The notes below the pieces were generated by a model that saw nothing but the letters and a program-made list of their open reading frames with translations, was not told the DNA's origin and did not search any database. The translations under genes and the position numbers were made by a program. This document shows positions 2,902 through 17,631 of a stretch of 21,835 nt of DNA, in pieces; the stretch's first letter is position 1, and every line of letters begins with the position of its first letter. The stretch lies in IMG/VR virus record IMGVR_UViG_2802429217_000001. The stretch is one strand, 5' to 3'. This DNA is from a virus. Lineage: Duplodnaviria; Heunggongvirae; Uroviricota; Caudoviricetes.

Positions 2902-3980
2902 CAGAACGGGTCCTCCTGTACTCTGGCTTTTTTCTTTTTCCGCGCGCCGGGATCTTCGGGTTCAGGCAGATAAGCATCAGGCGGGCCGACACGGATTTCC
3001 GTCAGGGTGCCGTTCTGGTCCTGAGTAAACGTGACTTCCGAAACAAGCAGTTCGGTATTGTCGAAACCACAGACCGGATCAAAGACAATCACCCGCTGGT
3101 TGGGCTGCCACAGCGTACCGTTACCCTGTCGCCAGCCCTGCACCACATAGGTGGTTTCATCCGTCCGCGCCGCCCGTTGTCGGGCTTCAAAGTCAGCACG
3201 CGCAATACAACCTGCCCCCGTGGCCTGCCCTGTCTGCCTGATATACATCGGACGGTAACGGGCAATAAATGCGTCCTCTGTGCGGGCCCGCAGCGCGGTG
3301 GTGGTGGCCTCACCGAAATCATCGTCGTTTCCGGCACGCTGCCCCGCCACCTGGTAAACTGAAAACCGCTCCCGGATACTCTTCTCCGTATCACAGGAAA
3401 GGATGTTTTCCCCAAGTACCAGCGCGGTATGTGCCCGCGTTGAGCCAATACCGCCAATCACCAGCCTGCCGTGCGGGTCGTCGTAAGCCAGTGCCTGCTG
3501 CTGACCGAGTATTTTGTTGATTACCTCAATCACCGTTTCACCGTGATCAGGCTGGACATCAGGAATAACACCCGACGGCGCACCGTTGTTCACCACCTCA
3601 ATGCCGAAAGGCGCAGCAAGCGCCTACGCAATCTGTACCAGCGATCGTCCGTTAAACTGTGTCGGTTCGGCTGCACAGTCAATCAGGTCAGCGGTCAGAC
3701 TGCGTCCGGCAATACCGGTGCTGACCGAACGGGCATCGTAACGAACGGGCGTCGCCTCCACCCAGCCGGTGATCACCAGCTCATCACCAATCAGCACCTC
3801 CACTTTTGAACCGTTTTTAATGCACGGCTGAAGCGTGGTAATACCCTCATCTCCCGGCCACTGGCGGGTGATCTCCACACTGAAATCCCGCGCCAGCCGT
3901 TCAATACCGGCACCGATGCGCACCGATGTCCAGCCATTCCACTCCCGGCCATTTACCCGTAGCGTGACATTGTCGTTCAT
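2901..3980 (-). pseudogene. Mu gpP-like baseplate/tail protein, interrupted by a single in-frame TAG (amber) codon at 3624-3626
   Basis: ORFs 3624..3980 (118 aa) and 2901..3596 (231 aa) are in the same frame (3980-3596 = 384 = 3x128). Between them is only TAG (plus cta at 3624-3626) plus nine sense codons. Read-through gives ...SLVQIA-*-ALAAPFGIEVVNNGAPSG..., about 359 aa, matching a gpP-like protein in the slot between the N-like and V-like genes. Confidence 0.6.
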
Positions 3981-5305
3981 TGCACTGGCACCTTCAGAGG
4001 GATCACCGGCACAAAGCCGGGATGCGTAATGGCATTACGCCGGATAATGTCCGCGTCACGCGCCGCGTTATCAAACCAGGTCGCCGCCAGCACCAGCGCG
4101 GGTAAAACCTCATCCGGCGTGCGCTGAATGATCCGTGCAGACTGTTCAAGGCGCGTGTTGATATCCGCATTCAGATCTGCTTTCACCCGGCGCAGCGCCA
4201 GAAACAGCGCATCACTGGTTGTACGGGACAACTCCTTATCAATTGCCGTATTCAGTGTGTCGCGAATGTCGGTCAGTTCTTCCCACGTTGGCAGGTCAAC
4301 CGTGTTTTTCACCGCCGGTGCATTGTTCAGTGCCGGATGCGTGACAGAAGGCCAGCCGGTGCTCTGCGCGGGTGTTGTTGACTGCCCCACTGTGGCATTC
4401 TGCATCACCGCGGAAGTTGTGGGCGCAGGCAATCGTGTGACGGCATACGCCGCTTCGCTGATTGCGGTCGTACGAAGGGTGCTGGCAACCACGTTACGCT
4501 GCTGCGTCGCCGTGGCGGTGGTTTTACTGTCCGTTTTCCAGACGCCGCGCGGTTGCAGATCGCTGCCGAGGATGACACCGGAAAGCGTTTTGATCATGGT
4601 GACCAGGTCGCTGGCGTTACCATAAAGGCGTTTCCCGGTACGCCACATTTTCTGCACCTGCTCAACGAAATTTTTGCCTGACGATGGCGGCGGCAGAAGT
4701 ACCGAGATATCCCCCTGCAACAGCCTGGCGGCATCCGATACGGCAGAATCCACCACTTTCATCGCATCAGAAACATACCCAAGCATTGTGCTGGCATTAC
4801 CGACGACGTCGTTCTGCACAAAATCTGCCACGCCATCGATACTGAAACCACTGAAGCTGTCACTGATGCAGTCATCCAGTGCAGAACAGGATGACATCAG
4901 CGTCTGCGCCGTCGCCGCACCTGAAGTGGGGTAAGAGAGTTCTCCCGCTTCGACAAACTTCAGGTCAAAGCGGACAATACGCCCTTCACTCTTCGATGTG
5001 CTGACCCGAACTTCCCCGTCAACACAGACTTTCAGCTCACCGTAAGTCGGATGGACAAGCGTGCCGGGACCGGGTTTATTCAGCGCGTCAATCAGGCGAT
5101 CGCGCTGGTCAAAGCAGTCATCTCCCACCACATAAGCTGTGATGGACGGGCGGAAAGTGATTTTCCCCAGGTCTTCGGTATAGGGTTTGTCGCGGTTCGG
5201 GTATTCGTGCGTTTCCACACGACGACCGGTTCCCGCACTTTCTTCTTCAACCTTAAACGGCACACCGCGAAATGACGCGTCCTGAAGTCTGTCTTTCCAC
5301 GTCAT
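3977..5305 (-). CDS. DNA circulation protein (Mu N-like)
   Basis: Long ORF (456 aa from the track start at 5347). N-terminus from the internal Met reads MTWKDRLQDASFRGVPFKV..., which I recognise as the N-like DNA-circulation N-terminal pattern. Start placed at ATG 5305 because it has an SD (GGAG, 6-nt spacer) and the 5347 start would overlap a terminator hairpin. Confidence 0.7.
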   Translation of the reverse strand: MTWKDRLQDASFRGVPFKVEEESAGTGRRVETHEYPNRDKPYTEDLGKITFRPSITAYVVGDDCFDQRDRLIDALNKPGPGTLVHPTYGELKVCVDGEVRVSTSKSEGRIVRFDLKFVEAGELSYPTSGAATAQTLMSSCSALDDCISDSFSGFSIDGVADFVQNDVVGNASTMLGYVSDAMKVVDSAVSDAARLLQGDISVLLPPPSSGKNFVEQVQKMWRTGKRLYGNASDLVTMIKTLSGVILGSDLQPRGVWKTDSKTTATATQQRNVVASTLRTTAISEAAYAVTRLPAPTTSAVMQNATVGQSTTPAQSTGWPSVTHPALNNAPAVKNTVDLPTWEELTDIRDTLNTAIDKELSRTTSDALFLALRRVKADLNADINTRLEQSARIIQRTPDEVLPALVLAATWFDNAARDADIIRRNAITHPGFVPVIPLKVPVQ

Positions 5306-5320
5306 ATAAACTCCGTACAT

Positions 5321-5342
5321 AAAAAATCCCACCGGAGTGGGA
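5321..5342 (-). terminator. Rho-independent terminator-like hairpin between the tape measure and N-like genes
   Basis: On the minus strand: UCCCAC-UCCG-GUGGGA (plus 5327-5342) followed directly by U6 (plus a-run 5321-5326). Lies between the tape measure stop (5366) and the N-like start (5305). Confidence 0.5.
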
Positions 5343-5365
5343 CTCATTAACAGATTAATTTTTCA

Positions 5366-7201
5366 TTACCTGCCAAAGCGCGTATAGCCAACATCATGGC
5401 TGACATCAAAACCGCTGGATCGCGTTTCCATAACCCGCATACCCGGAGGCGAATTCACAAAAGAGACCTTGATCTCACCATCAACTTTTGGCGCAGAAGC
5501 TTTGTTAATCATGAAGGGATTCGGGCCTGTGGCATCGGAGGCGTTGTTTGACTGAGCCGGATCTACCGCCTGATAAGGTGTGTATCCCCGTGCCGGTATT
5601 CCCGTCCCATAAGCATCATAAGCACCCGCGCCCCACTGCGCAGAGTTAATGGCATCGACCGTGTCACCGGAACTGTCGGTAAACCACTCAATAATTGGCT
5701 TCAGCTTGTCCCACATATCCTGAAACCACTTAACAACCGGTCCCCAGTTATTGATTACCATCCCCAGCGGCGACCAGGCAAAAACCTTCTTCAGAAGTTC
5801 CCAGCCAGCCTCAAAATAAGGACCAATGGTTTCCCAGAGCTTCTTGAAATAAGGTCCGACAACATCCCAGTTAGTGATAATTAATCCCGCAGCCAGGGCT
5901 ATCGCCGTCGCAATCATGCCAATCGGCGTCATCGACATGATCCTGCTGACAATGCTGATGGCACTGCCCACGCTCATCAATCCCAGTTTCAGAATCGCAA
6001 GACCGGCAGCAAGCCCGACGACGCCGCGAATAACCCGGGGATTTTCATCCGCAAACTTCGTGAATTTTTCCCCCAACTCCCCCAGCCATTGCGTGATATT
6101 TTTGGCGTCACCAGAAAATGCGCCGCCAATAGCCGCAAGGCCGTTAGTTGCGGTCCCCGTCATTGCCTCCCACAGGTTGGACAGCGTACCAAGCTGTGCC
6201 TGAACACGTTTATTCAGGCTGGCCTGTTTATTCATCTTTTGCTGGATCTGATCGTAACCATCCTTTCCTTTATCGATCAGCGCATTGACCACCTGAAGGG
6301 TTTCGGCATCATCACCAAATATTGCCTTAAGTACACCTGTTCGCTTAACGTCGGTCAATTTTCGCAGCTTTGCCAGTTGCTTAAACATGTTATCAAGACC
6401 GCCAAAACTTCCTTTGCCGTCAGTAAAATCGAGCTGTACCCCGAGTTTCTGACGGGCCATAACTTTATTGACGTCCCTGATTTTCTTAACGCTTAATCCG
6501 GACTGGATAACTTTTCGCAGGGCATTACCTGCCGACTCCCCGTTCATCCCCATCTGATCCATCATGACGCTGATGGGGGCAAGGCTCTGTGCAGCCTGAA
6601 GACCGTCCTTGTTCACCATCTTCAGAACAGAACTGGTTTTAGTGAAGAAGGACAACATGTTGGTATCGTCAACGCCCAGATAAAACGCCTTCTGGATAGT
6701 GTCGAACAGCCCCATCATGTCTTCTGACGCCGTTCCGGTAGCATCCTGCATCTTTGCAGCAAACTCAGCAGCCGCTTCCGGTGTTTTTTTCAGTTGTACC
6801 GCAAGATAAGCTGTCGCTTTACCCACACCGCCAAGAATATTTTCTGCCGGGATCCCCTGACGCACCAGCATCTGCATCATGTTCTGGAAATCAGCCGTTG
6901 TACCGGGTAGCTGGTTACCCAGGCCAATAGCCAGTTTATTGATGTCCTGAAAGCTCTTTCCGACCTCGCCGTTCGCATCCATCATGGCGACTTTCAGCCC
7001 GGTGGCGGCGTTTTCCTGATCGGCATAAGATTTCAGGGAAAGCGTCAGACCCGCTGCCAGTCCGCCACCAAGCGCCAGCCCACCCTGTGATGCTTCTTCC
7101 GCCTGGCGTTTAAATCCCCGGATTTTCTTTTGCATTTTCGACAGCGCGGGAGAAAGTCTGTCGACACCGGTGATCAACGCCTTAAGCTCAAATTCAGCCA
7201 T
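5366..7201 (-). CDS. Tail tape measure protein
   Basis: 611-aa ORF directly downstream of the chaperone/frameshift pair. Gly/Ala-rich N-terminal part and hydrophobic C-terminal segments. SD GGAGAAA upstream of ATG 7201. Confidence 0.8.
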   Translation of the reverse strand: MAEFELKALITGVDRLSPALSKMQKKIRGFKRQAEEASQGGLALGGGLAAGLTLSLKSYADQENAATGLKVAMMDANGEVGKSFQDINKLAIGLGNQLPGTTADFQNMMQMLVRQGIPAENILGGVGKATAYLAVQLKKTPEAAAEFAAKMQDATGTASEDMMGLFDTIQKAFYLGVDDTNMLSFFTKTSSVLKMVNKDGLQAAQSLAPISVMMDQMGMNGESAGNALRKVIQSGLSVKKIRDVNKVMARQKLGVQLDFTDGKGSFGGLDNMFKQLAKLRKLTDVKRTGVLKAIFGDDAETLQVVNALIDKGKDGYDQIQQKMNKQASLNKRVQAQLGTLSNLWEAMTGTATNGLAAIGGAFSGDAKNITQWLGELGEKFTKFADENPRVIRGVVGLAAGLAILKLGLMSVGSAISIVSRIMSMTPIGMIATAIALAAGLIITNWDVVGPYFKKLWETIGPYFEAGWELLKKVFAWSPLGMVINNWGPVVKWFQDMWDKLKPIIEWFTDSSGDTVDAINSAQWGAGAYDAYGTGIPARGYTPYQAVDPAQSNNASDATGPNPFMINKASAPKVDGEIKVSFVNSPPGMRVMETRSSGFDVSHDVGYTRFGR

Positions 7202-7376
7202 GTGTGCGTTTCTCCTGCTCTATCCTGTTTGCCTGACTGACCAGCAAGGGAATTTCACTGATCGGCATATTCAGCAATTCGAAGGGATTAATGCGCCAGT
7301 AACTGGCGCAGTCAAAGAAGCGATCAGTGAGGTATTCAGCCGTCAGGCCTGGAGGAAAAAACCGGCCACAAGCCAC
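7194..7376 (-). CDS. Tail assembly chaperone -1 frame extension (GT-like fusion part)
   Basis: ORF in the -1 frame relative to the chaperone, overlapping its last 34 nt and ending 8 nt inside the tape measure start. Reached by -1 slippage at T TTT TTC. Predicted fusion about 139 aa. Confidence 0.55.
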   Translation of the reverse strand: MACGRFFPPGLTAEYLTDRFFDCASYWRINPFELLNMPISEIPLLVSQANRIEQEKRTHG

Positions 7377-7612
7377 GCCGCTGCATTCAGGTCTGCCGGA
7401 GACATCTGGTCGACAGAGCTTTGCGGCACTTTCGCCAGCCGCACAATGTATTTCGACACCACATGCGCCAGAAGTCTGACGGACTCATCCTGATTCATCT
7501 GGTAGGGATACCCCAGCTCGCGGACATCCTTCCCGGTGGGTTCATCAAACTCCAGTACGGAAAGTGTCTCACCATGAGCGATAATCGGTTTCTTTAACTC
7601 AAGCTCTTTCAT
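7343..7612 (-). CDS. Tail assembly chaperone (G-like), frame-0 product
   Basis: 89-aa ORF between the tail tube and tape measure genes. Ends ...AGFFLQA* and contains the slippery heptamer. Confidence 0.65.
   Translation of the reverse strand: MKELELKKPIIAHGETLSVLEFDEPTGKDVRELGYPYQMNQDESVRLLAHVVSKYIVRLAKVPQSSVDQMSPADLNAAAWLVAGFFLQA
7355..7361 (-). other. Programmed -1 ribosomal frameshift slippery heptamer T TTT TTC
   Basis: Minus-strand sequence GCC GGT TTT TTC CTC CAG GCC TGA (frame 0) versus CGG TTT TTT CCT CCA GGC (-1 frame). Heptamer is X XXY YYZ with X=Y=T, Z=C, placed 3 codons before the frame-0 stop. Confidence 0.6.
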
Positions 7613-7968
7613 TACTGGTAATCCCCTTCTTCACCGTGGAACTCAAGATCAACCGTGCCTTCTTCGGCATTATGGTTCGCTTCGCCGTGCAGCCAGGCGG
7701 ACGACAATACATAGACCTGACCGTTCGCCAGCTCTGCAGTGATGGTCATCTCATCAGACGAGGTGATTTTGCTCACCGGAAAATTCTTCGGCACCTTGAA
7801 GGTCCCTTTGACATAAGGCGCACGGTGAGTTTCCTTGCGGTCCACTGAACCGTCCAGGCCGATGATGTCATCATTGACCGTCCTGTTCATGGGCACCTCA
7901 ATGCCGCCGGTCAGCGATAGCTGCTGACCGTCAATTTTGAAATAACAGGTTCCCCCGATACGGGCCAT
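7612..7968 (-). CDS. Tail tube protein
   Basis: 118-aa ORF immediately downstream of the sheath gene (stop/start overlap), upstream of the chaperone. Confidence 0.7.
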   Translation of the reverse strand: MARIGGTCYFKIDGQQLSLTGGIEVPMNRTVNDDIIGLDGSVDRKETHRAPYVKGTFKVPKNFPVSKITSSDEMTITAELANGQVYVLSSAWLHGEANHNAEEGTVDLEFHGEEGDYQ

Positions 7969-9464
7969 TATGCGGACTCCTCTGAATACTGAAGACGGAA
8001 CTGGTTAACCACGGCAAAGACACGCAACTGGTTAACATAGTCAGGCGGGAACAGCGTGTTCAGGCGGTTCGGATCGCTGGCATCACGCTCCACAACCAGG
8101 TACTGCTTAAACAGTTCGTAGTTTTCCACGATCCCCGCACGCTCAAGCTGACGGTAGGTTGCCAGCAGTTCCCCTTTGATCACCGCCGGTGTGACAATCG
8201 CCTGACCGGGACCAAAGCGGGTACCGTCGCTGGCAAGCTTGTGACGCCCGTACTTACTGGTAATGACGGATTTCAGTTTGCGCAGCACATACGCGCTGGT
8301 ATGCAGCGTCTCGCTGTCGAGGTAGCTGTTATCCGCAACACCGTAAGCGTTTTTCCTGTACGTGGTGACATCACGCTGAATGCGCAGCACCCCGCTTTCG
8401 ACATACGCCGTTGCCACGCCATGAGACAGCAGGGTCTGTTGTTCGGTCATCGTGAACCGTTTCCCCTTCGGCGCAGGCAGCATCCCCACCAGCTCACCGG
8501 TCTGCGTGGGACGTGCCGGATCGTTGCGAATAAACACCGCTGCGCGGGCGGTACGGCTTGCCGCCAGCTCGTCGGCAGGCGTCTGGGTCTCTTTTTCGTA
8601 TCCCGCCAGGGTAATGTGCTGCTGGTTAAACTGGTCACCTGCGGTCACCAGTTCTGACAGCGTGCCGATCTTTGCCGTATACACATGACCATACAGCTGA
8701 CGCGCATAGCTCCAGCGACCGCTGGTATCGTTCATCTCGGTCACCAGCGTGTTAACGGAGGCCGTGTCGTTGAACGGCAGGCCGATATAATCAAACGGCT
8801 CATCCGCCATTGCAGCCACCGCGCCGGTGAGAACCGGAGCGCCCGTTCCGGCGGTCCCCGTCGCCACGGCAATCTGTACGCCCGCTGGCAGCACTTCGCC
8901 CCCACCAAAGCCGTAGTAATTGAGGCTGACAGGAATTTCATTCCCGCAAAGCCCCTTATGACGCGCGGTCAGCGTGACCACGCCTGCCGAAGATGAGGCC
9001 GTAAACGGCAGGGCCGGAACGGCATTAATGGCATCCTGGATACTGCCGGCAATCGTCGTGACGTTATCTCCGTTGGTCACCGGTGCCTGCACGCGGGTAC
9101 GTCCCACATAAACATTCACCGTGCCGGTTTCGGTTGCCGCCCCGGTCACCGTCAGCGTAACCGTTGCCGCCGCGCCTGTGGCTTCCGGAACGGCAATCAC
9201 ATACAGCTCGCCAAACGGGTCGGTCTGGCGATAAGCCTCGACCATACGCGCCAGCTGACTTCCCGCACCACAAATCTGGCGTGCATAGTCTGCCGACGGC
9301 ATCAGTACCAGACTGTTGGCAACAATCTCTGCACCGTTATTGGCATGACCAATCAGCAGCGATGCTCCGCTGTCCTGTGCAGTATTCGCCGCCTGGTTAT
9401 CCATTTCCGCATAAAACAACGGAACCAGCGTATTCGACGGAATGGTGTTAAAGCTTATCGTCAT
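7968..9464 (-). CDS. Contractile tail sheath protein
   Basis: 498-aa ORF followed by a roughly 120-aa tube gene, the canonical sheath-tube pair of myovirus-type tails. Confidence 0.8.
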   Translation of the reverse strand: MTISFNTIPSNTLVPLFYAEMDNQAANTAQDSGASLLIGHANNGAEIVANSLVLMPSADYARQICGAGSQLARMVEAYRQTDPFGELYVIAVPEATGAAATVTLTVTGAATETGTVNVYVGRTRVQAPVTNGDNVTTIAGSIQDAINAVPALPFTASSSAGVVTLTARHKGLCGNEIPVSLNYYGFGGGEVLPAGVQIAVATGTAGTGAPVLTGAVAAMADEPFDYIGLPFNDTASVNTLVTEMNDTSGRWSYARQLYGHVYTAKIGTLSELVTAGDQFNQQHITLAGYEKETQTPADELAASRTARAAVFIRNDPARPTQTGELVGMLPAPKGKRFTMTEQQTLLSHGVATAYVESGVLRIQRDVTTYRKNAYGVADNSYLDSETLHTSAYVLRKLKSVITSKYGRHKLASDGTRFGPGQAIVTPAVIKGELLATYRQLERAGIVENYELFKQYLVVERDASDPNRLNTLFPPDYVNQLRVFAVVNQFRLQYSEESA

Positions 9465-10187: not shown

Positions 10188-10690
10188 CTGTGTCGTCGCT
10201 CCGGCTTCAGTGATTTACGCAATTCCCGCGCCAGAAAATAGCGTGTCCAGCTGCGGTTCTTTTCAAGCGTTTCCACCATGAAGTTATTACGTGGAGCCAG
10301 TCGCCAGCCGCTGCCACCGGATGCACCACGATGATGACTACGACGACGTTTTGCTCCTCCCCGGACACCAAAAAACAGAAACGCCGGATAGAAGTCACCA
10401 GAGATCATCCGGTTCCCCTTCCCGTTGCGCTGGTTAGGGGCAATGCATGTCATAAAACCGGCTCGCTTTTTACTGGCTCTCGGCACCATATAACCAATCG
10501 AACGAGCCAGGCGTCCGGTCTGATAACCGGGGTTTTCACCCGGTGCCGACCGCGCACGGCGCATCACCAGCCGACGGGCATCACGCATATGACGCTGCCC
10601 AATCGTGACAAACGCCCGCCGGACACGGGCGCGGTTAAAGCGCATCTCGGCGGGCTGCTGAACATCAACGTGAAAAAAGGGAGTCGCCAT
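10184..10690 (-). CDS. HK97 gp10-family head-tail joining protein
   Basis: 168-aa basic, Arg-rich ORF (..GYQTGRLARSIGYMV..) in the expected position after the head-tail adaptor gene. Confidence 0.55.
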   Translation of the reverse strand: MATPFFHVDVQQPAEMRFNRARVRRAFVTIGQRHMRDARRLVMRRARSAPGENPGYQTGRLARSIGYMVPRASKKRAGFMTCIAPNQRNGKGNRMISGDFYPAFLFFGVRGGAKRRRSHHRGASGGSGWRLAPRNNFMVETLEKNRSWTRYFLARELRKSLKPERRHR

Positions 10691-11075
10691 TGCTGCCTCC
10701 GTGACTCTGCCTACATTCGCCCAGCTCCGTACACTCCAGCAGCAGAAAGCGCCGCGCCCCGTTCAGATCACGCTGACGTTTCACCCGGTACACACTGTCA
10801 TCACAGACCACCTCATAATCAGCAGTGATCCCCCGGCGGTAACGAATGGTGATGTAATGGGTGATGGCGTCCCCGGTCTGCGCGGTTTCCTGCCAGGTGG
10901 TGGCACTGGTCTGGATAACCTTCGCCCATGTCCGGAACGTAACCGGGTATTGAGGCTCCACGCCAAAGTTATCCGCGGGCATATCCACCCGCTGGCGGAT
11001 CAGGACGCGTTTATTCAGTTCACCGGGGTCCGGCAGAATGTAGGTTGCGCTGGTCTGCGCCTGACGAATTTTCAT
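10665..11075 (-). CDS. Head-tail adaptor / head closure protein
   Basis: 136-aa ORF following the gp6-like connector gene with an overlapping start. Start codon uncertain. Confidence 0.55.
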   Translation of the reverse strand: MKIRQAQTSATYILPDPGELNKRVLIRQRVDMPADNFGVEPQYPVTFRTWAKVIQTSATTWQETAQTGDAITHYITIRYRRGITADYEVVCDDSVYRVKRQRDLNGARRFLLLECTELGECRQSHGGSNGDSLFSR

Positions 11076-11395
11076 TGCGGGAAATACCTGTACGGGCCGA
11101 CAAGCCAGTTAAAGCTCATTGGCAACTCCATTTTCTCAACGTCTGTAACCGACGAGCGATTTTCGTAAAAATGGCTGATAAGCATCAGCATCCCCAGACG
11201 AATATCATCCGGCAGGTGCAGCCCGTCCGGATCGCTGTCCGGAATAGTTTCATCCGGAGCATAGAGCTTCCGGTTCAGATACGTTTCCGTCCGCTTTTGC
11301 GCCGCACAGGCCAGCAGTTGCAGATGGCGGTCATCAGCATCGAAATCCTCATCCAGCCGGAGTTGGGCTTTAATCTCTTCCATTGTCAGAAGCAT
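11072..11395 (-). CDS. Head-tail connector protein (gp6-like)
   Basis: 107-aa acidic ORF (MLLTMEEIKAQLRLDEDFDADDRHLQLL...) downstream of the capsid gene, as in HK97-type head modules. Confidence 0.6.
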   Translation of the reverse strand: MLLTMEEIKAQLRLDEDFDADDRHLQLLACAAQKRTETYLNRKLYAPDETIPDSDPDGLHLPDDIRLGMLMLISHFYENRSSVTDVEKMELPMSFNWLVGPYRYFPQ

Positions 11396-17280: not shown

Positions 17281-17631
17281 TTACTTCAGCCGTTCACGGG
17301 CCGTCTTCGCCTTATGACACGGCCAGCACAGACTCTGCAGATTATTGTCGGCATCAGTGCCGCCATGCGCTTTAGGGATGATGTGGTCAACGGTTTTTGC
17401 TTCACGCACCACGCCAGCACGCTGGCATAACTGACATAAACCTTTGTCACGCTTCAGCACGCGCGCGCGGATAACGTCCCACTTCGAACCATAACCGCGC
17501 TGATGACGGGACTGACCTGGCTTGTATTGCTTCCAGCCTTCGCTTTTGTGGCTTTCGCAGTAGCCTGAAGGATCTGTGGTGGTATGGCGGCAGCCGCGAA
17601 AACGGCAGGCTTTTGGGGTTCGTGGTGGCAT
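17281..17631 (-). CDS. HNH endonuclease (packaging-associated)
   Basis: 116-aa ORF with Cys pairs and the motif ..VDHIIPKAHGGTDADNNLQSLCWPCHKAKT..; located directly upstream of the terminase genes. Confidence 0.85.
   Translation of the reverse strand: MPPRTPKACRFRGCRHTTTDPSGYCESHKSEGWKQYKPGQSRHQRGYGSKWDVIRARVLKRDKGLCQLCQRAGVVREAKTVDHIIPKAHGGTDADNNLQSLCWPCHKAKTARERLK

What the first reader, a model, noticed from the sequence alone, without database searches (positions are those of the whole stretch)
7194..7612. Programmed -1 frameshift site in the tail assembly chaperone
A perfect slippery heptamer T TTT TTC (plus 7355-7361) lies three codons before the chaperone stop. The -1 frame stays open from there for 53 codons and ends just inside the tape measure start. 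This is the conserved G/GT-type arrangement of tailed phages, readable directly from the sequence. The 60-aa ORF should be annotated as a fusion extension, not an independent gene.
Basis: partly seen in the sequence, partly recalled or inferred. Interest (0 to 1): 0.45.

Follow-up and report, generated by a model that had tools for sequence, protein, structure and literature searches.

The report
Tail chaperone -1 frameshift site, unannotated
This SfV-like E. coli prophage has the usual tailed-phage arrangement in which a slippery TTTTTTC sequence should let a few ribosomes extend the tail assembly chaperone into a longer fusion protein; it is ordinary biology that public annotations of this phage family leave out.

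Summary
All genes here are on the minus strand. The 89-aa chaperone (7612..7343, Pfam PF10109) lies between the tail tube gene and the tape measure gene. It carries an in-frame T_TTT_TTC at 7361..7355, three codons before its stop. The -1 frame then runs 53 codons to a TGA at 7196..7194, which overlaps the tape measure ATG at 7201.

The comparative evidence is strong. All 21 loci compared (chaperone 38-100% identical, including a betaproteobacterium), plus SfIV, F1055, YeP1, AH07 and P2, keep an in-frame T_TTT_TTN at the same GF[FL] position. All keep a 50-59 codon -1 extension ending at the tape measure start. Only the three heptamer codons are frozen at synonymous sites. The extension is under purifying selection in the -1 frame (dN/dS 0.02-0.34). 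In 12 of 21 loci it has no possible start codon upstream of the heptamer.

This is the P2 E/E+E' form of the lambda G/GT frameshift, placed in a Mu-like contractile tail. Mu itself uses a -2 shift. No stimulatory RNA structure was found. No public record examined annotates the fusion. The biology is expected, so interest is low. The value lies in correcting annotation.

The parts
7343..7612 (-). Tail assembly chaperone, frame-0 product of 89 aa (analogue of P2 gpE and lambda gpG)
   Evidence: ORF, translation. Pfam PF10109 Phage_TAC_7 at E 2.4e-15, 56.7 bits, residues 4-86 on profile positions 2-78 of 79. PHROG 166 'tail protein'. PGAP names it 'phage tail assembly protein'.
7355..7361 (-). 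Slippery heptamer T_TTT_TTC in X_XXY_YYZ phase (codons GGT TTT TTC = G84 F85 F86)
   Evidence: Sequence. It is the only in-frame heptamer in the gene. Codons are frozen across 19 distinct relatives: GGT 19/19, TTT 19/19, TTC 18 and TTT 1, while every other conserved residue shows mixed codons. It falls on the same profile columns as the annotated P2 slip site GGT TTT TTG.
7194..7355 (-). -1 frame extension of 53 codons plus the TGA stop (analogue of P2 E' and lambda T); the fusion CDS is complement(join(7194..7355,7355..7612)), 139 aa
   Evidence: Purifying selection in the -1 frame: dN/dS 0.02-0.34, and window versus L088 gives pS 0.70 and pN 0.03. Conserved motif (Y/F)FDCA.YWR(I/L)NP.ELL...QANRI. 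PHROG 32181 'unknown function' at E 3e-41. No Pfam or NCBIfam hit.
5366..7201 (-). Tape measure protein gene (611 aa); its ATG overlaps the extension's stop by 8 nt (ATGGCTGA)
   Evidence: PF10145 at E 1e-26. The overlap junction is conserved in most relatives.
7612..7968 (-). Tail tube protein gene (118 aa), immediately upstream; its stop overlaps the chaperone start
   Evidence: PF10618 at E 2.4e-33. Annotated as tail tube protein.
7968..9464 (-). Tail sheath gene (498 aa), which shows the tail is contractile and Mu/SfV-like
   Evidence: PF04984, PF17482 and PF17481. Annotated 'similar to phage Mu GpL' in SfV.
7292..7310 (-). Candidate RNA hairpin or DNA palindrome UGCGCCAG-UUA-CUGGCGCA, 44 nt downstream of the heptamer, inside the extension (codons C-A-S-Y-W-R); role unknown
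   Evidence: Folds. Local synonymous freeze: TGC 17/17, GCC 16/19, TAC 15/15, CGC 14/17, against mixed codons on both sides. No covariation. Only one perfect copy in the window. Membership in the frameshift signal is not shown.

Best explanation
[quoted passage not shown] Most ribosomes read GGT TTT TTC CTC CAG GCC TGA and release the 89-aa chaperone. A minority slip back one base, with the two tRNA-Phe on UUU-UUC re-pairing to UUU-UUU. They then read CCT CCA GGC... for 53 more codons and release a 139-aa fusion (...AGFF-PPGLT...) at a stop overlapping the tape measure start. By analogy with lambda G/GT and P2 E/E+E', the short form coats the tape measure protein. The rarer fusion uses its extension to recruit the tail tube protein so the tube polymerises around the tape measure, and neither form ends up in the virion. 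Shown here: the anatomy, family membership of the chaperone, conservation of site and phase, nucleotide-level constraint on the heptamer, coding constraint on the extension, and the absence of an independent start. Inferred: that slippage happens, that it is ribosomal, its efficiency, and the roles of the two products.
For: The anatomy is exact. The chaperone is PF10109, and P2 gpE matches the same profile positions 2-78, so GFF here and GFL in P2 (where the record marks the -1 site) occupy the same columns. All 21 of 21 loci (chaperone 38-100% identical, Enterobacterales plus Derxia gummosa) have an in-frame T_TTT_TTY. Their -1 extensions are 50-59 codons and end at the tape measure start, while the distance to the frame-0 stop varies from 3 to 14 codons, or 21 in SfIV and F1055. 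All 80 IMG/VR copies are intact. Synonymous sites are frozen only at the three heptamer codons. Extension dN/dS is 0.02-0.34. In 12 of 21 loci there is no start codon upstream in the -1 frame. The chaperone, extension and tape measure swap as one module between this window and SfIV (tube 100%, sheath 98%, chaperone 45%, extension 34%, tape measure 25% identical), and the SfIV paper notes the same divergence (PMC3851460). U_UUU_UUC is a proven -1 shifter in E. coli: 0.12% bare, 0.9% with the IS911 stimulator, 7.6% with the IS3 pseudoknot (PMC4066793 supplement). Background on lambda, P2 and Mu comes from PMC5009743 and PMC3091744.
Against: There is no direct evidence of the fusion protein. In a reporter context the bare U6C heptamer gives only about 0.12%, close to background. 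No significant or conserved stimulatory structure lies 5-9 nt downstream in this window (z +0.63). It is therefore unexplained how a lambda-like or P2-like level of a few percent would be reached, although P2 reportedly also lacks a hairpin. The extension does not match the P2 E' Pfam family PF06528. Its similarity to P2 E' is only weak (hhalign P 0.007). Insertion of one U by RNA polymerase in the T6 run would give the identical protein.
Confidence: 0.85

Rival explanations
1. The same fusion protein is made by transcriptional slippage. RNA polymerase inserts one extra U in the T6 run, producing a subpopulation of mRNAs in which the chaperone and extension are in one frame.
For: The product would be identical (GGU UUU UUU CCU...). 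Conservation of GGT, which lengthens the run from T5 to T6, fits this too. Relatives carry T6 or T7 runs. U7 and A7 runs are depleted in all three frames of E. coli genes, possibly because of transcriptional slippage (PMC4066793).
Against: From my own knowledge, efficient slippage by E. coli RNA polymerase usually needs runs of about 8-9 or more. No relative has lengthened the run beyond 7, and P2 uses T6G. The homologous P2 site is described as a translational frameshift (PMC3091744 citing Christie 2002). The run is always in X_XXY_YYZ phase, but the conserved GFF residues would impose that phase anyway, so this point is weak.
Confidence: 0.08
2. The 60-aa ORF (7376..7194) is an independent small gene that starts at its own GTG, as annotated in ON470584 and grouped in PHROG 32181.
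For: The window has a GTG at 7376 in the -1 frame. One phage record and the GenBank SfI and SfII records call it a separate hypothetical protein. PHROG 32181 treats it as a family.
Against: In 12 of 21 relatives there is no ATG, GTG or TTG in the -1 frame between the upstream stop and the heptamer, and where one exists its identity and position are not conserved. No Shine-Dalgarno sequence precedes the GTG. Conservation of the peptide starts at the heptamer, not at the GTG. The heptamer codons are frozen at synonymous sites, which an independent gene would not require.
Confidence: 0.03
3. The heptamer and the open -1 frame are coincidental, and the 141-nt stretch is an untranslated spacer before the tape measure gene.
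For: TTTTTTC alone is common in the window, with 10 copies. PGAP and RefSeq leave the stretch unannotated.
Against: The extension shows a clear coding signature in the -1 frame: pS 0.48-0.79 against pN 0.03-0.30, and third-position differences of 4480 against 2952 and 2383. It also has a conserved peptide motif out to a betaproteobacterium, and length and end-point conservation.
Confidence: 0.01

Closest known systems
Phage P2 E / E+E' (-1 frameshift at T_TTT_TTG; 91-aa E and 142-aa E+E'; contractile tail)
   Same: Both chaperones belong to Pfam PF10109, and both match profile positions 2-78. The slip site sits at the same Gly-Phe-(Phe/Leu) codons, GGT TTT TTC here and GGT TTT TTG in P2. The extensions are of similar length (53 and 57 codons) and both stops overlap the tape measure start. 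The product sizes are similar (89/139 aa here, 91/142 aa in P2). The gene order sheath-tube-chaperone-tape measure is the same. P2 also has no downstream hairpin.
   Different: The last base of the heptamer is C rather than G. The extension does not match PF06528 (Phage_P2_GpE) and aligns to P2 E' only weakly, though on the same W..P.EL motif (hhalign P 0.007). The rest of the tail is Mu/SfV-type, not P2-type. The P2 shift is experimentally verified; this one is not.
Phage lambda G / GT (-1 frameshift at G_GGA_AAG; G:GT about 30:1)
   Same: The logic and position are the same: two overlapping ORFs between the major tail gene and the tape measure gene, a slippery heptamer near the end of the first, and a fusion made at low level. 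The proposed roles are also the same, with the chaperone binding the tape measure and the extension binding the tube protein (PMC5009743).
   Different: No sequence similarity was detected and the Pfam family is different. The heptamer is different. The lambda tail is non-contractile.
Phage Mu gp41 and its frameshift extension (-2 frameshift)
   Same: The tail type is the closest: the SfV sheath and tube are Mu L-like and M-like. Mu gp41 also touches PF10109 (24.7 bits, just under the 25-bit cut-off). Mu has a similar unannotated gap of about 145 nt before its tape measure gene, holding an open frame.
   Different: The Mu extension lies in the +1/-2 frame, and -2 frameshifting is reported for Mu (PMC5009743). 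From the likely site is the G-rich stretch CGG GGG CGA, but that site assignment is my inference. Mu gp41 is 144 aa and belongs primarily to PF23746. The element in this window is a plain -1 heptamer.
SfV, SfII, SfI, SfIV and related temperate myoviruses and prophages
   Same: The window is 98-99% identical to SfII, SfI and SfV over this region. About 900 of 5426 complete E. coli genomes carry it. SfIV, F1055 and YeP1 carry a diverged version of the same arrangement with T_TTT_TTT.
   Different: None of the 18 phage records with a homologue of the extension, nor the PGAP record examined, annotates a joined CDS. The SfI and SfIV genome papers do not mention a frameshift.

Membership tests
Tailed-phage tail assembly chaperone frameshift (lambda G/GT and P2 E/E+E' kind) | Gene pair located between the major tail or tube gene and the tape measure gene | tested here: met
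   The order is tube (PF10618), then chaperone, then extension, then tape measure (PF10145).
Tailed-phage tail assembly chaperone frameshift (lambda G/GT and P2 E/E+E' kind) | Slippery X_XXY_YYZ heptamer in the zero frame inside the overlap of the two ORFs | tested here: met
   T_TTT_TTC lies at 7361..7355 in phase. The -1 frame is open from 123 nt upstream to 7194.
Tailed-phage tail assembly chaperone frameshift (lambda G/GT and P2 E/E+E' kind) | Second ORF lacks its own translation start | tested here: met
   In 12 of 21 loci there is no start codon in the -1 frame upstream of the heptamer. No Shine-Dalgarno sequence precedes the window's GTG.
Tailed-phage tail assembly chaperone frameshift (lambda G/GT and P2 E/E+E' kind) | Site and two-ORF arrangement conserved in diverged relatives, with nucleotide-level constraint on the site | tested here: met
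   All 21 loci plus 5 phages keep it. Codon counts are GGT 19/19, TTT 19/19 and TTC 18 with TTT 1, against mixed codons elsewhere.
Tailed-phage tail assembly chaperone frameshift (lambda G/GT and P2 E/E+E' kind) | Extension is a real coding sequence in the shifted frame | tested here: met
   dN/dS is 0.02-0.34 and the peptide motif is conserved.
Tailed-phage tail assembly chaperone frameshift (lambda G/GT and P2 E/E+E' kind) | Fusion protein produced at a fixed low ratio; both products required for tail assembly and absent from virions | not testable with these tools
   This needs a reporter assay, mass spectrometry or genetics. No proteomic data for SfV-like phages were found.
Pfam PF10109 Phage_TAC_7 (chaperones E, 41, 14) | Score above the family's gathering threshold over the full domain | tested here: met
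   56.7 bits against a cut-off of 25, residues 4-86 on profile positions 2-78 of 79. P2 gpE scores 47.8 bits on the same columns.
Pfam PF06528 Phage_P2_GpE (the E' extension of P2-like phages) | Extension matches the family profile | tested here: not met
   No hit at E up to 10 for any of 12 extension sequences, whereas P2 E' scores 78.7 bits. hhalign of the extension profile against P2 E' gives only P 0.007 over 41 columns. Distant homology is possible but not established.
Mu-type -2 frameshift (gp41, PF23746) | Extension in the +1/-2 frame; chaperone matches PF23746 | tested here: not met
   The extension is in the -1 frame with a standard heptamer. The only Pfam hit for the window chaperone at E up to 0.1 is PF10109, not PF23746. 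The Mu layout is shown.
Stimulated -1 PRF signals (dnaX or IS3/IS911 type: downstream hairpin or pseudoknot at 5-9 nt, or upstream SD-like element) | Stable, conserved RNA structure a few nucleotides downstream of the heptamer | tested here: not met
   In the window, the first 57 nt fold at -6.5 kcal/mol with z +0.63, and 90 nt give z -1.05. RNAalifold on 17 loci finds nothing near the site. Some distant relatives have their own hairpins right after the heptamer, but these are not conserved. Rfam finds nothing. An upstream SD-like element was inspected by eye only.

The most novel reading that the evidence does not exclude
The site may depend on a stimulator that has not been recognised. The bare U6C heptamer shifts at only about 0.1% in E. 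coli reporters, and no canonical nearby structure exists here. Yet a codon-frozen 8-bp hairpin (7310..7292) sits 44 nt downstream, and the nascent ...W-L-V-A-G-F-F tail is conserved. One of these could be an unconventional long-range or nascent-chain enhancer. Alternatively, the recoding could be transcriptional rather than ribosomal.
Probability: 0.12. Interest if true: 0.45.

Novelty: new member of a known kind. Interest (0 to 1): 0.2.

Why it matters
The main consequence is for annotation. The SfV/SfII/SfI tail module is present in roughly one in six complete E. coli genomes. In every record examined the 141-nt stretch is either left blank (RefSeq phage records and PGAP) or called a separate hypothetical protein (PHROG 32181). 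Annotating complement(join(7194..7355,7355..7612)) with ribosomal_slippage would name a 139-aa tail assembly protein and remove a family of unknown function. It also gives a clean comparison within one chaperone family (PF10109): the P2 and SfV lineages share a -1 site at the same codons, while Mu reaches the equivalent extension by a -2 shift. For engineering of SfV-like tails or tailocins, the chaperone, extension and tape measure should be moved together as one co-adapted module. Nothing here challenges current understanding.

Tried and rejected
- **Downstream RNA stimulator.** Single-sequence folds and a 17-sequence consensus fold found nothing significant or conserved at the canonical spacing. 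A scan of the whole window against Rfam gave no hit.
- **The +44 hairpin.** Pair counting showed almost no variation and no covariation, so structure cannot be separated from sequence conservation. A codon-freeze table does single the region out. The palindrome is unique in the window.
- **Homology of the extension to P2 E' and the Mu extension.** hhalign gave only P 0.007 and P 0.0024. There were no Pfam hits and no NCBIfam hits.
- **Direct hhalign of the chaperone alignment against single P2 gpE and Mu gp41 sequences.** This gave no signal; the alignment was too shallow (Neff 1.55). The link comes instead through the Pfam profile.
- **Structure.** The chaperone alone gave a mediocre model (pLDDT 72, pTM 0.53) with no PDB fold match at E of 0.001 or better. 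A PDB sequence search returned only spurious light-harvesting protein hits.
- **Database proteins of 137-139 aa (P0003, P0006, P0117).** They looked like natural fusions but carry several frame errors and come from low-quality assemblies. They were rejected as evidence.
- **Literature.** No held paper mentions a frameshift in SfV, SfI, SfII or SfIV. Xu et al. 2004 and Christie et al. 2002 are not held, so I cannot say whether SfV was in Xu's list of 28 phages. The PRFect supplement did not list it.
- **First IMG/VR scan.** It returned only loci encoding a chaperone 100% identical to the window's, useless for divergence but useful as a population check.
Full report
**What is there**

All genes in this part of the window are on the minus strand. 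The order is:
- tail sheath, 9464..7968 (498 aa);
- tail tube, 7968..7612 (118 aa);
- an 89-aa ORF, 7612..7343;
- a 141-nt stretch with no annotated gene;
- the tape measure gene, 7201..5366 (611 aa).

Pfam assigns these as sheath (PF04984, PF17482, PF17481), tube (PF10618), Phage_TAC_7 chaperone (PF10109, 56.7 bits against a cut-off of 25) and tape measure (PF10145).

The frame-0 end of the chaperone reads GTG GCC GGT TTT TTC CTC CAG GCC TGA. This places T_TTT_TTC at 7361..7355 in X_XXY_YYZ phase, three codons before the stop at 7345..7343. After a -1 slip the reading continues CCT CCA GGC CTG ACG..., giving 53 codons (PPGLTAEYLTDRFFDCASYWRINPFELLNMPISEIPLLVSQANRIEQEKRTHG). It ends at a TGA at 7196..7194, which overlaps the tape measure ATG at 7201 by 8 nt. 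The products would be 89 aa and 139 aa.

**Where the window comes from**

The region is 98-99% identical to the Shigella and E. coli temperate myoviruses SfII, SfI and SfV, and to vB_EcoM-689R6. It is 100% identical to a prophage in E. coli PapM-32-1. A near-full-length copy is present in 896 of 5426 complete E. coli genomes. The surrounding genes form an HK97-like head module joined to a Mu-like contractile tail.

**Is it more than chance?**

The motif alone is not special. TTTTTTC occurs 10 times in the window against 4.9 expected. The window's genes hold 12 in-frame X_XXY_YYZ heptamers in about 6659 codons. The context and its conservation are what matter.

A scan of one genome per species returned 20 loci whose chaperones are 38-100% identical to this one. 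They include many Enterobacterales genera and the betaproteobacterium Derxia gummosa. Across these 20 loci and the window:
- All 21 have an in-frame T_TTT_TTC (T_TTT_TTT in two) at the conserved Gly-Phe-Phe.
- All have a -1 extension of 50-59 codons that stops at or overlapping the tape measure start.
- The distance from the heptamer to the frame-0 stop varies from 3 to 14 codons.

The diverged SfIV, F1055 and YeP1 lineages do the same with T_TTT_TTT, 8-21 codons before the frame-0 stop. All 80 IMG/VR copies fetched are intact.

**Tests that could have refuted the reading**

1. *Nucleotide-level constraint.* Among 19 distinct sequences, every conserved residue of the chaperone shows mixed synonymous codons. 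For example G27 is GGG 6, GGT 5, GGC 5, GGA 3, and Y37 is TAC 11, TAT 8. The exceptions are G84 (GGT 19/19), F85 (TTT 19/19) and F86 (TTC 18, TTT 1).
2. *Coding constraint on the extension.* In the -1 frame, third-position differences exceed first and second (4480 against 2952 and 2383). Pairwise dN/dS is 0.02-0.34. For example, window against Buttiauxella (L088) gives pS 0.70 and pN 0.03. A motif, (Y/F)FDCA.YWR(I/L)NP.ELL...QANRI, is kept out to Derxia.
3. *Independent gene?* In 12 of 21 loci there is no ATG, GTG or TTG in the -1 frame between the upstream -1 stop and the heptamer. The window's GTG at 7376 has no Shine-Dalgarno sequence.

**Closest relatives**

P2 gpE matches PF10109 over the same profile positions (2-78) as this chaperone. 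The P2 record marks its -1 site at GTC GGT TTT TTG. These are the homologous Gly-Phe-Leu codons, followed by a 57-codon E' whose stop overlaps gene T. This element is therefore the P2 E/E+E' form of the lambda G/GT arrangement, sitting in a Mu-type tail.

Mu itself differs. Its gp41 is 144 aa (PF23746, with a marginal PF10109 match). Its extension lies in the +1/-2 frame, in line with the reported -2 shift (PMC5009743).

The extension here is not a sequence member of the P2 E' family PF06528. A profile alignment to P2 E' is weak (P 0.007) but lines up the same W..P.EL motif.

**Mechanism**

U_UUU_UUC is an experimentally proven -1 shifter in E. coli. It gives 0.12% with no stimulator, 0.89% with the IS911 stimulator and 7.6% with the IS3 pseudoknot. 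H_HH.U_UU.Y is listed among the most efficient motif classes (PMC4066793).

I found no significant structure at the usual 5-9 nt spacing in this window (z +0.63 and -1.05). A 17-sequence alignment showed no conserved one. Some distant relatives have their own hairpins directly after the heptamer, but these are not conserved. P2 is likewise reported to lack a hairpin (PMC3091744). The efficiency is therefore unknown.

Transcriptional insertion of one U in the T6 run would give the same protein and cannot be excluded from sequence. I rate it unlikely because the runs stay at 6-7 and the homologous P2 event is described as translational.

The roles of the two products are inferred from lambda (PMC5009743): the short form coats the tape measure and the extension recruits the tube protein. 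A supporting observation is that chaperone, extension and tape measure swap as one block between this window and SfIV. Those three are 45%, 34% and 25% identical, while the tube is 100% and the sheath 98% identical. The SfIV paper notes the same divergence.

**State of knowledge**

None of the 18 phage records holding a homologue of the extension, nor the PGAP annotation, carries a joined CDS. The stretch is either blank or a 'hypothetical protein', and it forms PHROG 32181 'unknown function'. The SfI and SfIV genome papers do not mention a frameshift. No held paper links SfV to one. Xu et al. 2004, which lists 28 phages, is not held, so prior prediction for SfV cannot be excluded.

**Verdict**

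It is best described as a new, unannotated member of a well-known kind. It is worth an annotation fix but is not a biological surprise.

One loose end remains. A codon-frozen 8-bp hairpin or palindrome at 7310..7292, 44 nt downstream of the slip site, has an unknown role.

Noticed in passing
window 7292-7310 (minus strand), inside the -1 extension: There is a perfect 8-bp inverted repeat with a 3-nt loop (UGCGCCAG-UUA-CUGGCGCA), 44 nt downstream of the heptamer. Its codons are frozen in relatives (TGC 17/17, GCC 16/19, TAC 15/15, CGC 14/17) while neighbouring conserved residues use mixed codons. There is no covariation and only a single perfect copy in the window. It could be an RNA element, a DNA binding site or codon coincidence.
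   Followed up: partly
window 5366-7612 compared with SfIV locus L107 2584-4899: The chaperone, extension and tape measure are exchanged as one block between otherwise near-identical tails. The tube is 100% and the sheath 98% identical, but the chaperone is 45%, the extension 34% and the tape measure 25% identical. The recombination boundary lies at the tube/chaperone junction.
   Followed up: partly
window 11078-11084 (minus strand), end of ORF 11072-11395: An in-frame T_TTC_CCG heptamer sits one codon before the stop of the head-tail connector gene, and the -1 frame continues into the next gene (10665-11075, ATGA overlap). This is probably just the usual 4-nt gene overlap, and the motif is a poor shifter.
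   Followed up: no
window 17611-17617 (minus strand), start of ORF 17281-17631: An in-frame C_CCA_AAA heptamer near the 5' end of the HNH endonuclease-like gene is followed by a 54-codon open -1 frame. Conservation was not examined.
   Followed up: no
window about 5347-5366 compared with locus L004 14333-15015: E. coli PapM-32-1, identical over the frameshift region, has an extra 531-nt hypothetical gene between the tape measure and DNA circularization genes. The window lacks it: its ORFs 5366..7201 and 3977..5347 are adjacent. This suggests an accessory-gene insertion point. It was judged from ORF coordinates only.
   Followed up: no
proteins P0003, P0006 and P0117: Database 'proteins' of 137-139 aa look like the predicted fusion. 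They arise from several indels in low-quality metagenome or read-archive assemblies, so they are not evidence for the fusion.
   Followed up: yes
loci L099, L100, L104, L097, L102: Several distant relatives have strong GC-rich hairpins that start 1-3 nt after the heptamer, for example GGGCUCG-GCGG-CGAGCCC in L099. These are absent from the SfV group. They may be lineage-specific stimulators at an unusually short spacing.
   Followed up: partly
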